This document shows, piece by piece, positions 3,550 to 38,178 of a DNA stretch of 57,156 nucleotides. The DNA comes from Promethearchaeota archaeon (lineage in GTDB: Archaea > Asgardarchaeota > Lokiarchaeia > Sigyniarchaeales > SOKP01). The notes under the pieces were generated by a model. It saw only the letters and a program-made list of their open reading frames with translations. It was not told the origin of the DNA and did no database searches. The number at the start of each line of letters is the position of its first letter. Position 1 is the stretch's first letter. Made by a program: the position numbers and the translations under genes. The DNA lies in NCBI GenBank assembly GCA_048940645.1, contig JBHLOI010000018.1, positions 1 to 57,156 on the forward strand, read 5' to 3'.

Positions 3550-4260
3550 TTAAGATGATTGCGGAGTTTTTTTATCTTTTACATATTCACGCATTTTTTC
3601 GAAAAATTCATCATCTTCTTTCTTATGATCTTCAGTATACCATTTATCAAACCGAATATGTCCTATAACTCTTGCTAAAACAATAACTAAAACAGTAATT
3701 ACAATACCATCTATTACTTGAAGCCAAACTTCTGTTAAATTCCAAAAATAAGAAACATCTGCAGATGAAACAGTAATTATTATCATTAATTCAAATTCAA
3801 TTTGCTCTTCTTGTTCTAGTCCTCCAGCTAAAAATCTTATAAATGCTTCTCCTGAGAGATATATTTCATTATCTTTCTCAAGTATTAAATTAATATGACT
3901 TTTATGAAGTGAGTTTCTCGGAGGATCATAAGTAAATAAACGAGAAATTAATGTTTGTGTAATAAAAAACCTGTAAATGTTATATTCGATTGAGGTAATC
4001 CCAATCGGTTCAACTGAACCAGTTGTAATTACATTAAAATCAAGATTTGCCGTGTATTTATAATTAGAATCTAAGTATAAATCAAATTCAATATTTAAAC
4101 CTCCCGTTCCTCCAACAAGAGATTGATTAAAATTTATATTTGTATTATAATGCCCTATTCCTAGTACTTCTCTAAAATTATTAAATACTGGCAGTAATGC
4201 AATACATGTAACTAATAAAATAGTAATGCCTGCTAATTTATATTTATTTTTCTTTTCGAT
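3550..4260 (-). CDS. membrane-anchored exported protein (~236 aa), probably with a non-canonical ATC start
   Basis: The frame of the 78-aa ORF stays open to 4332 with no ATG/GTG/TTG. IEKKNKYKLAGITILLVTCIALLPVF looks like a signal peptide beginning at ATC 4260, downstream of GGAGTAGGA. There is a C-terminal TM helix. Confidence 0.7.
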   Translation of the reverse strand: MEKKNKYKLAGITILLVTCIALLPVFNNFREVLGIGHYNTNINFNQSLVGGTGGLNIEFDLYLDSNYKYTANLDFNVITTGSVEPIGITSIEYNIYRFFITQTLISRLFTYDPPRNSLHKSHINLILEKDNEIYLSGEAFIRFLAGGLEQEEQIEFELMIIITVSSADVSYFWNLTEVWLQVIDGIVITVLVIVLARVIGHIRFDKWYTEDHKKEDDEFFEKMREYVKDKKTPQSS

Positions 4261-35383: not shown

Positions 35384-35902
35384 TTAAAACCCTGATTTAT
35401 TCATTTCTATTATTTTTTTTATCATTTTTTCAATATTGGTGTCTATAGTTTTAAGAACTTTCTTATAAATAGCATAACTCGTGTAATAAGGGTCAATAAT
35501 GTCTAAATCGCCTTTATTCTCATTAAATTCTTTCAATGTAAGAGTTTTTTTATCAATGTCGCTAATTTGGGGATAATTTCTGATGATATCGTTTGCTTGA
35601 GATTGTTCCATTGTTATTATTAAATCTTGTTTTTCTAATAGAGTTCTATTTAGAATCTTAGGCCTAAAATCTGAAGATTTTATCCCTTTTAGATCTAAAT
35701 ATTCTTTAGATTCTGGTTGCATATAGAAAAAAGCGTTAAAAAAGCCACAAGAATCAACATATAAATTAATATCATATTTTTTAGCATAATATTTAGCTAA
35801 ATACTCTGCTACCGGACTCCTTGCCGTGTTTATGGTTTTTTTGTGTTTTACAAATTAAAAATTTCCAGCACAGACAAAGAGTATATTTTTAATGTTAGCC
35901 AT
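35384..35902 (-). CDS. low-molecular-weight protein phosphatase/ArsC-family protein, split by a 33-nt insert (exons 35902-35863 and 35829-35384; 161 aa when joined)
   Basis: ATG 35902 gives MANIKNILFVCAGN, then an insert with in-frame TAA, then TARSPVAEY...DSCG...DLIITME...IIDPYY; removing the insert gives CAGNTARS. Confidence 0.85.
35830..35862 (-). other. candidate BHB-type (tRNA-endonuclease-spliced) mRNA intron, 33 nt
   Basis: mRNA reads GUG-CUGG-AA^A-UUUUU...AAAA-CCAU-AA^A-CAC: two AAA bulges around a 4-nt central helix, an exon-exon stem and an intron hairpin; the cuts restore frame and motif. Confidence 0.75.
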
Positions 35903-36014
35903 GAGTAATCGTGAAATAAAATGGAATTAAAGTTTTTTTAATATTTCTTACATAAATATTAAATTAATGGATATCTAAAAACATATTATATTCAATTATT
36001 GCTAAATCTCAAGG

Positions 36015-37646
36015 ATGTCAACATTTAAATTTAAAAGTAAGATTAGTAAAGTTGTTTTTGCAGATATTGCTCTTCCAAAAATTAGTTTTCTATATTTACT
36101 TCTTTCTTTTAGTTCTCTCGCTATAATAACAGAAGCATTGCTCTTCAAATACGCCTTTATAGTAGAGTATCAAGCAGCAATTAATTTAGAAGTATTTATT
36201 ATTTTATTCATAATTAGTATTAGCTTTTTAGTATCTGGAAGAGTAGTAGATTTTATAAAGAATAGAACCGCTTCATTTAATTATATTTTATTCTTAACCA
36301 TAATAGGATTGTTTTTAACGGTCTTCAGTGAGCTTATTGTGTATTACACTGGTTTATTCATTATCCTCCTTACTTTGCCTCTGCTAATTGTATTATGGTT
36401 CACAATTTTGGTCCATGAAACCAATATATTAAATCGAGGTCGTGTTACTGCCTTTTTAATAATCATTAGTTTTGTTATTGGAACCACGGGAGCATTTTTC
36501 GTACTTTTCGAGCCATTATACAACTATCTTTATATTTTAGAGGGTGTTATGTTAATCTTAATATGGATTTTATCTAAGAAATATAAATATCTTGAAACAG
36601 AAGAAAGGTTAAGATCTAAAAAAAAATATTTCAAAATAATCTTTGAAAAGCATTTCTTTCGTTATTCCTCAAGCTTTACAATCTTAAGTTTTATTTTAGG
36701 CAATCTATTAGCAACTCACGGATATGATATGGACTTATTAGTATTTTGTATAGCATCTTTTTTTTATTTAATTGCTGCTGGTTGGTTTTTAGATAATGTA
36801 GGTAGAAAAATCTCAATTGTTTTAGGAATATTATTATTGTCTTTTTTTCTAATATCGTCGGGATCTTTTATAGGTAGTGAATATATTTTCGGAATCCCGA
36901 AAAGGATATTTCTTGGAATACATTACGCATTTTCCATTACTCCATTATTATTAGCAATTTTTACAATATCTGGAGATTTCTCAATAGAAAGAGGAAATTT
37001 GAAGTTTAGGGGAAGAATTAATGGTTTATTTATGGGGCTTATGTTTTTAGGTATAATTATTGGCTTTGTTTTTACAAGATGGATAAGTGATCTACCCGGC
37101 GTGGATCTTTTTATACCAAATTTTTCAAGTTTAATAAATTCATTTGCTTTAGTTATTTTATTAGTGTGGATGATGTCAATGAAAGAATTTCTAGTCTCAA
37201 AGGAGAGAAATTGGGCATCGACGATAAAGATCCTTTATGTTTTTAACAATACAGGTGTGTGTTTCTATAGTTATAATTTTGAATCAAAAGATCAGAAACT
37301 ATATGCTAAAGAAGATGAATGTATGGATGAGGATTTAGTATCAAGTGCCTTAACAGGGGTTTTATCAATTTTATCCGAAATTACTCATAGTAAAAAGAAA
37401 TTGAGGAGAATAGAAAAAGATGATGATTATCTATATTTCAGTTATGGAAAGAATCACGTTGCTACTTTAATTTCATCAATGGATCTGCCTGTTTTAACTC
37501 GTAAACTCGATAATTTTTCAAAGGATTTTGAAGATAAGTTTGATGAAGATCTTAAACAATTTGTTGGTAATATGACACCCTTCGAATCGACCAAATATTT
37601 AATTAAGAAGAATTTTACTCAGAAATATGCATTTCTCACAGAATAA
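36015..37646 (+). CDS. MFS-like multi-TM protein fused to a C-terminal longin-like domain
   Basis: About 12 TM with MFS loop motifs (GRVVDFIKNR, GWFLDNVGRK); C-terminal LYVFNNTGVCFY...FEDKF...FVGNMTPF. Confidence 0.75.
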   Translation: MSTFKFKSKISKVVFADIALPKISFLYLLLSFSSLAIITEALLFKYAFIVEYQAAINLEVFIILFIISISFLVSGRVVDFIKNRTASFNYILFLTIIGLFLTVFSELIVYYTGLFIILLTLPLLIVLWFTILVHETNILNRGRVTAFLIIISFVIGTTGAFFVLFEPLYNYLYILEGVMLILIWILSKKYKYLETEERLRSKKKYFKIIFEKHFFRYSSSFTILSFILGNLLATHGYDMDLLVFCIASFFYLIAAGWFLDNVGRKISIVLGILLLSFFLISSGSFIGSEYIFGIPKRIFLGIHYAFSITPLLLAIFTISGDFSIERGNLKFRGRINGLFMGLMFLGIIIGFVFTRWISDLPGVDLFIPNFSSLINSFALVILLVWMMSMKEFLVSKERNWASTIKILYVFNNTGVCFYSYNFESKDQKLYAKEDECMDEDLVSSALTGVLSILSEITHSKKKLRRIEKDDDYLYFSYGKNHVATLISSMDLPVLTRKLDNFSKDFEDKFDEDLKQFVGNMTPFESTKYLIKKNFTQKYAFLTE

Positions 37647-37656
37647 AATCAAATTT

Positions 37657-38178
37657 TTATTCCTCTTCCTCGGAATTATTCATTTTTATAATTTTTTCAA
37701 TTACTTTGATTACTCCTTCTTCTATTCTTTGTAATACTTTGTTATATTCTATCTCATCCAAATAAAAAGGATCTTTAATTTCTAAATTTTCAGTTTCACC
37801 TGCAAATTCCATTAAAAGAAAAACTTTATTATTCAAATTCGCAATGTGCTTAAATTTTCTTTTTAATTTGTTAATATGCCATTTTCTTTCAAATCCTAAT
37901 ATAAGGTCTTGATTTTCAATTAAAACATCATCAACATCTTTTGCCTTAAAATCGCTTATATTAATTCCTTTTGAATTAAGATATTTCAGTGTTCCCTCTT
38001 GAGGTTCCTCATAATAATGATAAAGGCCAGCAGAATCAAACTGAATTCCTTTCAATTCATCTTTATATTTAGTTCTTTTTAGCCATTTTGCTAAATATTC
38101 AGCAAAAGGACTACGGCAAGTGTTTCCAGAGCATAAGAAAAGCACGTTATGGATTTTAGTCAATTTAGTCCTCATCAA
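37657..38178 (-). CDS. low-molecular-weight protein phosphatase/ArsC-family protein (intact paralogue)
   Basis: VLFLCSGNTCRSP, DSAG, IKDPF. Confidence 0.93.
   Translation of the reverse strand: MMRTKLTKIHNVLFLCSGNTCRSPFAEYLAKWLKRTKYKDELKGIQFDSAGLYHYYEEPQEGTLKYLNSKGINISDFKAKDVDDVLIENQDLILGFERKWHINKLKRKFKHIANLNNKVFLLMEFAGETENLEIKDPFYLDEIEYNKVLQRIEEGVIKVIEKIIKMNNSEEEE

What the first reader, a model, noticed from the sequence alone, without database searches (positions are those of the whole stretch)
35384..38178. Intron-containing and intronless LMW-phosphatase paralogues side by side: a possible splice-gated switch
Seen in sequence: the paralogue at 37657-38178 has the uninterrupted junction TCT GGA AAC ACT (CSGNTCRS), the same GGAAACAC produced by splicing the first gene. 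Both exons of the split gene are otherwise free of lesions and keep DSCG, DLIITM and DPYY. Unspliced RNA gives only MANIKNILFVCAGNF*. The split copy lacks the second P-loop Cys (NTAR vs NTCR). Inference: the activity of one phosphatase depends entirely on splicing, and the imperfect central helix might make splicing tunable. This would loosely parallel HAC1/XBP1-type endonuclease/ligase splicing.
Basis: partly seen in the sequence, partly recalled or inferred. Interest (0 to 1): 0.75.

Follow-up and report, generated by a model that had tools for sequence, protein, structure and literature searches.

The report
tRNA-type mini-intron splits phosphatase gene
One of two neighbouring phosphatase genes in this Loki-type Asgard archaeon is broken in its catalytic loop by a 33-base insert shaped like a tRNA intron; it is very probably cut out of the mRNA, but it looks like a wandering mini-intron, not a purpose-built on/off switch.

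Summary
On the minus strand, a low-molecular-weight phosphatase (LMW-PTP) gene (35902-35384) carries a 33-nt insert (35862-35830) with an in-frame TAA. The insert splits the catalytic loop into CAGN | TARS. The paralogue at 38178-37657 is uninterrupted (CSGNTCRS).

[quoted passage not shown] Cutting after the second base of each bulge restores the reading frame. The same site is interrupted in three more orthologues of the genus (20 or 21 nt; the 20-nt one shifts the frame) and in the other paralogue of two further species (21 nt). The exon-exon and central helices pair in 96% of cells across these six genes. Carrier genes evolve under purifying selection. The genome has two EndA genes and RtcB. 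It also has at least three more such mini-introns, two in pfk and one in a VWA gene.

The "splice-gated switch" reading is not supported. The five closest relatives lack the intron. Carriers are scattered over the gene tree. The C·U mismatch is private to this genome. The intron appears to have moved together with its exon flanks between species and between the two paralogues.

No RNA data exist, so splicing itself is inferred. This scan has reported similar Asgard mRNA mini-introns on other genomes. In print I found only cbf5 inside a coding sequence.

The parts
35863..35902 (-). Exon 1 of the split LMW-PTP gene: ATG at 35902, 13 codons plus 1 nt, ending ...TGT GCT GGA A. It holds the catalytic Cys.
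35830..35862 (-). 33-nt BHB mini-intron with an in-frame TAA. Because both bulges are AAA, the cut can be placed 1-2 nt further 5' and give the same product.
35384..35829 (-). Exon 2 (AC ACG GCA AGG ... TAA): the Arg-Ser of the P-loop, DSCG, DLIITM and DPYY. Pfam LMWPc 1.3e-19.
35869..35881 (-). 5' strand of the exon-exon helix h: 7 bp distal, one bulged U at 35874, 5 bp proximal.
   Evidence: alignment columns 7-19
35817..35828 (-). 3' strand of the exon-exon helix h. It lies in the Asn-Thr-Ala-Arg-Ser codons.
   Evidence: alignment columns 60-71
35865..35868 (-). Central helix H, 5' strand (CUGG, exon 1).
35832..35835 (-). Central helix H, 3' strand (CCAU, end of the intron). The U at 35832 faces the C at 35868, giving the C·U mismatch.
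35862..35864 (-). 5' bulge AAA. The predicted cut is after its second base.
   Evidence: cut rule as stated in PMC2738675
35829..35831 (-). 3' bulge AAA. The predicted cut is after its second base.
35836..35861 (-). Intron-internal helix h' (UUUUU 35861-35857 with AAAAA 35840-35836) and an inner hairpin (35853-35850 with 35844-35841).
37657..38178 (-). Uninterrupted paralogue B (173-aa ORF; the real start is probably the ATG at 38175). The P-loop CSGNTCRS is at 38133-38110. About 39-40% identical to the split gene.
36015..37646 (+). Membrane-protein gene lying between the two paralogues. It has no Pfam hit and is not part of the intron story.

Best explanation
The 33-nt insert is an archaeal bulge-helix-bulge (tRNA-type) mini-intron inside the coding sequence of a low-molecular-weight phosphatase.

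Inferred mechanism: the pre-mRNA pairs the codons for L-F-V-C with those for N-T-A-R-S, giving a 12-bp exon-exon helix. It adds a 4-position central helix (3 bp plus a C·U mismatch), two AAA bulges and an A/U helix inside the intron. The two-subunit splicing endonuclease EndA cuts after the second base of each bulge. RtcB joins the exons. The result is an mRNA for a 161-aa enzyme with an intact C-A-G-N-T-A-R-S loop. Unspliced RNA gives only a 15-residue peptide.

The intron is most likely spliced constitutively. It behaves as a neutral or selfish passenger, one of several such mini-introns in this genome. It arose within this genus. It spread, together with about 20 nt of exon on each side, by recombination between species and between the two neighbouring paralogues.

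The side-by-side arrangement of the paralogues is ancestral and is not linked to the intron. At most, adjacency makes such exchanges easier. The C·U mismatch looks like a leftover of such a transfer: the intron end CCAUAA pairs G·U with the AGU codon of the B-type gene.
For: BHB geometry and frame. The predicted cuts restore the P-loop in all six carriers: G000 33 nt, G010 21 nt, G021 20 nt (frame-breaking if left in), G023 21 nt, and paralogue B of G020 and G018 21 nt. G006 and G023 are sister genes that differ by exactly the predicted 21 nt.

Structure. The h and H helices pair in 95.8% of cells, against 34-50% when the partner is slid. There are two pairs with changes on both sides, and one of them includes a synonymous AAT>AAC change in G000.

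Selection. dN/dS of G000 against its sisters is 0.14-0.17, the same as among intronless genes. The G000 branch has 9 synonymous and 6 nonsynonymous changes. The two intron-bearing B genes have dN/dS 0.145 at dS 0.49.

Machinery. The genome has two EndA paralogues, RtcB, and 13 of 29 ARAGORN tRNA calls with introns.

Same genome, other genes. pfk intron 2 splits IGG|DDT, with Pfam PFK profile positions 24-100 before it and 103-276 after it. pfk intron 1 splits GGG|DCPG. A VWA_CoxE-like gene has a 30-nt intron whose constrained BHB energy is -22 kcal/mol, and its intronless orthologues are exactly 410 aa.

Against a dedicated switch, and for mobility. Carriers fall in four separate supported clades. 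G021's flanks are 36/37 identical to G023's gene, which is 65% identical elsewhere, but only 26/37 to its sister G017, which is 95% identical elsewhere. The B genes of G020 and G018 read NTARSPAAEY (A-type) followed by SKWLK (B-type). No insert was seen in about 90 genomes of other genera.

The insert is in DNA of an independent study.
Against: There is no RNA evidence at all: no RNA run holds the locus. Excision, ligation and constitutive splicing are therefore all inferred.

The central helix has a mismatch and h' is pure A-U, so cleavage could be inefficient. The minimum-free-energy fold of the region alone is not significant (z = -1.73).

Shared exon flanks among carriers could partly reflect convergent selection for the helix and not transfer. 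Six carriers are a small and related sample.

The intron lies only 40 nt from the start codon, so translation could compete with folding. That leaves room for regulation.
Confidence: 0.72

Rival explanations
1. Splice-gated switch. Splicing of this one paralogue is rate-limiting and regulated, for example through the weak central helix, EndA level, temperature, or competition with ribosomes starting 40 nt upstream. The cell would then tune phosphatase A independently of its always-on neighbour B.
For: Activity must depend on splicing. The helix is imperfect in G000. The 5' splice site lies close to the AUG. In each of the six carrier genomes only one of the two paralogues is interrupted. A negative-regulator role was once proposed for the cbf5 intron (PMC2738675).
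Against: The intron is absent from the 5 nearest relatives and from 34 of 38 orthologues. It sits in the other paralogue in two species. The mismatch is not conserved. Similar introns occur in pfk and a VWA gene of the same genome. No regulated EndA is known, to my knowledge.
Confidence: 0.12
2. Dead gene. The insert is a disabling insertion in a pseudogene and is never removed. Only paralogue B is functional.
For: There is an in-frame stop 15 codons into the gene. The closest relatives do without the insert. No RNA data are available.
Against: Exon 2 is intact and under purifying selection. The insert has BHB geometry in the exact frame-restoring register in six genes. Two carriers of the B intron have stayed intact over dS 0.49. 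The promoter-proximal sequence is conserved with intronless sisters.
Confidence: 0.05
3. The intron is real, but its history is different. It was already present in the ancestor of the genus (or of both paralogues) and was lost precisely many times. The shared exon flanks reflect structural constraint and not lateral transfer.
For: The site is the same in all carriers. Intronless G006 and G020 keep helix-competent flanks, as expected after a recent loss. Precise loss through cDNA recombination was proposed for cbf5 (PMC2738675).
Against: This history needs many independent losses on the tree. G021's whole exon 1 differs from sisters that are 95% identical elsewhere, and its intron core matches G023's. 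The B genes of G020 and G018 are A/B mosaics. No insert was seen in other genera.
Confidence: 0.15
4. Translational bypass or recoding. Ribosomes hop over the 33 nt (take-off at AAU, landing at AAC), or read TAA as sense.
For: In G000 the insert is a multiple of 3, and Asn codons flank it.
Against: TAA terminates this very gene and its neighbours. In other carriers the gap is 20 or 21 nt with different flanking bases. An 11-residue insertion in the P-loop would destroy the active site. BHB geometry explains all six cases.
Confidence: 0.02

Closest known systems
BHB intron in the cbf5 (pseudouridine synthase) pre-mRNA of Desulfurococcales and Sulfolobales (Watanabe 2002; Yokobori 2009, PMC2738675)
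   Same: Both are tRNA-type introns inside an archaeal coding sequence. Both are predicted to be cut between the second and third base of each bulge by a hetero-oligomeric EndA. Both sit at a catalytic residue. Both are patchily distributed through gain and loss. A regulatory role was once proposed for cbf5 too.
   Different: The gene and the phylum differ (Loki-type Asgard). The intron is much smaller (20-33 nt). It sits at one site in two paralogues. Here there are signs that the intron moved with its exon flanks between species and between paralogues. cbf5 itself is uninterrupted in this genome. Splicing is shown experimentally for cbf5, not here.
Archaeal tRNA and rRNA BHB introns, and the 5'-UTR intron of Haloferax HVO_1309 (PMC7714728)
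   Same: The motif (3-nt bulge, 4-bp helix, 3-nt bulge) and the enzymes (EndA, RtcB) are the same. The host genome is rich in tRNA introns (bioRxiv 10.64898/2026.10.13.758758 for Asgard generally).
   Different: Here the helix halves are built from protein-coding sequence, so codon choice and RNA structure constrain each other. Removal is needed for the reading frame, not for RNA function.
HAC1 / XBP1 unconventional mRNA splicing
   Same: Both are spliceosome-independent: a protein endonuclease cuts and an RNA ligase joins (RtcB in animals). In both, a short intron blocks production of the active protein.
   Different: Ire1 cuts twin stem-loops, not a BHB, and is switched on by stress. No Ire1-type RNase domain was found here, though that search was uninformative, and no regulation is shown.
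Low-molecular-weight protein tyrosine phosphatases (Pfam PF01451, for example Wzb or YwlE)
   Same: The fold family is the same. The spliced product has C-x5-R-S and the DPYY acid loop.
   Different: Clade A has Ala in place of the second P-loop Cys. No NCBIfam subfamily reaches its cut-off, so the substrate is unknown.

Membership tests
Archaeal BHB (EndA-spliced) intron | [quoted passage not shown] | tested here: met
   Both bulges are AAA. The central helix is CUGG:CCAU, 3 bp plus a C·U mismatch, in G000. It is fully paired in 4 of the other 5 carriers.
Archaeal BHB (EndA-spliced) intron | Flanking helices h (exon-exon) and h' (intron-intron) | tested here: met
   h is 12 bp with one bulged U and pairs in 95.8% of cells over 6 genes. 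h' is 5 A-U pairs plus an inner hairpin.
Archaeal BHB (EndA-spliced) intron | Cutting after base 2 of each bulge yields a functional product | tested here: met
   The cut restores C-x5-R-S and the reading frame in 6 of 6 carriers, including a 20-nt insert.
Archaeal BHB (EndA-spliced) intron | Splicing endonuclease and RtcB ligase encoded in the genome | tested here: met
   Two PF01974 genes (C2, C25) and one RtcB gene (C7).
Archaeal BHB (EndA-spliced) intron | Excision seen in RNA (spliced junction, circular intron) | not testable with these tools
   No RNA holder is listed for the locus.
LMW protein tyrosine phosphatase (PF01451) | Profile match over the domain | tested here: met
   Exon 2 alone scores 1.3e-19 over profile positions 10-142 of 144.
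LMW protein tyrosine phosphatase (PF01451) | Contiguous C-x5-R-(S/T) P-loop and a DP acid loop | tested here: met
   The P-loop is met only in the spliced reading (CAGNTARS). DPYY is present in exon 2.
HAC1/XBP1-type regulated splicing | Ire1-type RNase cutting twin stem-loops; stress-dependent | tested here: not met
   The cut sites lie in BHB bulges, not in twin 7-nt loops. No PF06479 match, but the control rang nowhere, so that part is uninformative. Condition dependence is untestable.
Programmed translational bypass (T4 gene 60 type) | Matched take-off and landing codons, with a stop directly after take-off | tested here: not met
   The codons are AAU and AAC, not identical. The stop is one codon further on. 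Gap length and flanks differ among carriers.

The most novel reading that the evidence does not exclude
The intron is a working gate. Because the 5' splice site lies 40 nt from the AUG and the central helix is weakened, the share of transcripts spliced depends on conditions such as EndA or RtcB level, temperature, or ribosome loading. In each carrier genome exactly one of two neighbouring phosphatases would then be under post-transcriptional control. This would be an Asgard counterpart of HAC1/XBP1-style regulated, spliceosome-free mRNA splicing.
Probability: 0.1. Interest if true: 0.85.

Novelty: new member of a known kind. Interest (0 to 1): 0.62.

Why it matters
In the papers I could search, tRNA-type splicing inside an archaeal coding sequence is documented for one gene only. 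That gene is cbf5 in Crenarchaeota; PMC7714728 says so explicitly. This case would add a second gene family, in the archaeal group closest to eukaryotes, with the intron placed in the middle of an active site.

The comparative pattern is the more useful part. One fixed site is occupied in 4 of 38 orthologues and in 2 copies of the paralogue, with exon flanks that travel with the intron. That gives a concrete picture of how a protein-spliced intron can be gained, passed between species and between paralogues, and lost precisely. It also shows how RNA structure can constrain codon choice.

It matters for annotation as well. Gene callers will report this phosphatase, pfk and the VWA gene as truncated or broken.

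The regulatory idea that made the finding attractive is not supported by the distribution of the intron.

Tried and rejected
- RNA evidence: no RNA holder is listed for the locus. My single read-laying run went to DNA contigs. These confirmed the insert in an independent study and also picked up intronless relatives' contigs.
- Plain MFE folding of 86 nt: z = -1.73, not significant alone, and it chose a slightly different register.
- Rfam: nothing relevant.
- Bacterial-type promoter and terminator scan: uninformative for an archaeon.
- NCBIfam: only sub-threshold hits to Wzb and ArsC models, so no subfamily name can be given.
- Comparing the mismatch with this genome's tRNA introns: ARAGORN's intron boundaries were too noisy to use.
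- Genome-wide BHB plus ORF screen: 249,447 raw motifs reduced to 10,463 ORF-joining candidates, mostly spurious (antisense or low-complexity ORFs, such as C111:1962-1994 and C11:108706-108804). Only the phosphatase, VWA and pfk sites were convincing. My filters miss relaxed motifs (pfk intron 1 was found by eye), so the count is a minimum.
- Candidate at C11:86090-86113: rejected as an intron. It is more likely a TGA-selenocysteine redoxin.
- Ire1 domain search: uninformative, because the control rang nowhere.
- BLAST of the intron against its own genome: only short AT-rich matches, the best being 19/20 at C43.
- TAA recoding and ribosome hopping: considered and rejected (see rivals).
Full report
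**What is there.** The minus strand of 35384-35902 encodes a low-molecular-weight phosphatase (LMW-PTP). Its reading frame is interrupted after 14 codons by 33 nt that carry a TAA. Read straight through, the frame gives MANIKNILFVCAGN-F*FVKHKKTIN-TARSPVAEYL... The insert is therefore in frame but closed, and it sits inside the C-x5-R catalytic loop. Exon 2 alone matches Pfam LMWPc (1.3e-19). The intact paralogue at 37657-38178 also matches (1.3e-23) and reads CSGNTCRS. Earlier notes of this scan place the organism among Loki-type Asgard archaea; I did not test that placement.

**The insert has the shape of a bulge-helix-bulge (BHB) intron.**
- Exon 1 bases CUGG (35868-35865) pair with CCAU at the end of the insert (35835-35832), giving three pairs and one C·U mismatch.
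- On each strand this helix is followed by an AAA bulge.
- Beyond the bulges lie two helices. One is a 12-bp exon-exon helix with one bulged U, formed between the L-F-V-C codons and the N-T-A-R-S codons. The other is an A/U helix inside the insert.
- Cutting after the second base of each bulge is the rule quoted for cbf5 in PMC2738675. Applied here, it removes exactly 35862-35830 and gives GGA A|AC ACG GCA AGG, which reads G-N-T-A-R.
- A strict motif of this kind occurs at about 3e-4 of all (site, length) pairs in this genome. Hitting the one frame-restoring register is therefore not a chance expectation.
- The same DNA, without a single difference, is present in contigs of an independent study.

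**Relatives.**
- The genus holds 42 genomes, and 38 have the orthologue, which I call clade A.
- Four carry an insert at the same site: this genome (33 nt), G010 (21 nt), G023 (21 nt) and G021 (20 nt, which would shift the frame). In each case the BHB rule restores C-x-G-N-T-A-R-S.
- G006 and G023 are sister genes that differ by exactly the predicted 21 nt.
- The other paralogue, clade B, carries a 21-nt insert at the same site in G020 and G018.
- Over these six genes the exon-exon and central helices pair in 95.8% of cells, against 34-50% when the partner strand is slid.
- Two pairs change on both sides. In this genome A-U became G-C next to the central helix, and the 3' change is a synonymous AAT>AAC.

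**The carrier genes are alive.**
- All 38 exon-2 frames are intact.
- dN/dS between this gene and its sisters is 0.14-0.17, the same as among intronless genes.
- Changes private to this genome are 9 synonymous and 6 nonsynonymous.
- The two intron-bearing B genes show dN/dS 0.145 at dS 0.49.
- The genome encodes two EndA paralogues and RtcB, which is consistent with the two-subunit endonuclease reported for most Asgard genomes (bioRxiv 10.64898/2026.10.13.758758).
- 13 of 29 ARAGORN tRNA calls have introns.

**This is not a peculiarity of the phosphatase.** I screened the whole genome for BHB motifs whose removal joins open frames. The screen recovered this intron and found three more:
- A 30-nt intron in a VWA_CoxE-like gene (C72:6691-6720). 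Its constrained BHB energy is -22 kcal/mol. G019 shares it, and it is absent from orthologues that are exactly the spliced length of 410 aa.
- A 30-nt intron in pfk that splits IGG|DDT. The Pfam PFK profile covers positions 24-100 before it and 103-276 after it.
- By eye, a 31-nt intron further upstream in pfk that splits GGG|DCPG.

All of these sit on G-rich codons for conserved motifs. In this AT-rich genome such codons can build stable helices. This scan has reported the same kind of mini-intron in other Lokiarchaeia genomes. In print I found only cbf5 inside a coding sequence and one Haloferax 5'-UTR case (PMC2738675, PMC7714728). cbf5 is uninterrupted in this genome.

**Is it a switch?** The evidence points away from that.
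- The five nearest relatives (84-88% amino-acid identity) lack the intron.
- The four clade-A carriers lie in four separate well-supported clades.
- In two species the intron is in paralogue B and not in A.
- About 90 genomes of other genera show no insert at the site ("not found in those searched").
G010 and G023 have C-G at that position, the B-type introns have G·U, and G021 is weakened at the other end of the helix.
- The intron end CCAUAA of this genome is the form found in the B-type introns, where it pairs with the AGU codon. The mismatch therefore looks like a legacy of transfer from a B-type gene into a gene with GCU. That is an inference from 17/21 shared intron positions in an AT-rich sequence, so it is weak.

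**Mobility.**
- All carriers share the exon flanks CTCTTTGTYTGT-R-[CG]-TGGAA and AYAC-N-GC-M-AGGAG, whatever their position in the tree.
- G021's flanks are 36/37 identical to those of G023, a gene only 65% identical elsewhere. They are only 26/37 identical to its sister G017, which is 95% identical elsewhere. The intron cores of G021 and G023 also match.
- The B genes of G020 and G018 read NTARSPAAEY, the clade-A version, directly after the intron. They then continue with the clade-B sequence SKWLK.
- Across the G020 and G018 loci, identity drops from about 90% (upstream region and B) to about 70% (A) at the gene boundary.

The simplest reading is that the intron travels as a cassette with the exon halves of its BHB motif, by homologous recombination between species and between the adjacent paralogues. 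Only recombinants that bring the whole motif remain spliceable. Convergent selection on the helix may contribute to the shared flanks, and an older origin with repeated precise loss cannot be excluded.

**Shown and inferred.**
- Shown: the sequence features, the geometry, the conservation of pairing, the purifying selection, the presence of the enzymes, the patchy distribution and the mosaics.
- Inferred: that the RNA is cut and ligated, that this is constitutive, and that the intron spread laterally.

No RNA run holds this locus. The regulatory reading therefore cannot be excluded and keeps a small probability. The closeness of the 5' splice site to the start codon (40 nt) is the one feature that could make splicing compete with translation.

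**Verdict.** The intron reading is well supported and the switch reading is not. This is a new member of a known but very sparsely documented kind (the cbf5-type mRNA BHB intron). Its most useful aspect is an unusually clear comparative record of gain, transfer between paralogues and precise loss.

Noticed in passing
G000 contig C72:6691-6720 (minus); locus L042/L044: A 30-nt BHB mini-intron with an in-frame TAA sits in a VWA_CoxE-like gene and splits ...VVIVGDAA|MASWEL.... It is the strongest BHB in the genome (7-bp h, 4-bp H, 10-bp h'). G019 shares it, with changes in the hairpin. G030, G018, G033 and G021 are contiguous and 410 aa long.
   Followed up: yes
G000 contig C37:3329-3359 and 3645-3674 (plus); locus L043: The phosphofructokinase gene carries two mini-introns (31 and 30 nt) that split the GGG|DCPG and IGG|DDT motifs. 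The Pfam PFK profile is continuous across the second one. The first has a relaxed exon-exon helix and was missed by my screen. The start codon of the first exon is unclear: there is no ATG, GTG or TTG after the upstream stop.
   Followed up: partly
L006:978-998 (G020) and L027:978-998 (G018): Paralogue B of two other species has a 21-nt intron at the same P-loop site, and its P-loop is converted from NTCRS to NTARS. Identity between the two loci drops from about 90% to about 70% at the B/A gene boundary.
   Followed up: yes
G000 contig C11:85978-86451 (plus): A redoxin-like ORF has an in-frame TGA (...VVIVLFRSKN-TGA-PYAKAH...). My screen flagged it as an intron candidate. A tRNA-SeC is called at C101:14409-14501, so this is probably a selenoprotein.
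   Followed up: no
window 36015-37646 (+): A 543-aa multi-pass membrane protein with a soluble C-terminal domain lies between the two phosphatase genes. It has no Pfam hit. Another note of the scan calls it an MFS-longin fusion. The same A-gene/membrane-gene/B-gene order is seen in G019.
   Followed up: no
relatives, e.g. G029:C61:96199-96678, G021:C10:14824-15303: Many species of the genus have a third tandem LMW-PTP paralogue (P-loop C-Y-A-N-N-T-C-R-S) next to clade A. It was not found at this locus in G000.
   Followed up: no
G000 contig C43:44397-44416: The intron core has a 19/20 match here, antisense to an ARAGORN 'tRNA-Stop(tta)' call with an intron. It is possibly chance in AT-rich DNA.
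   Followed up: no
G000 contig C7:15049-15390 (minus): cbf5 (TruB_N), the one archaeal gene with a published coding-sequence BHB intron, is a single uninterrupted 345-aa frame in this genome.
   Followed up: yes
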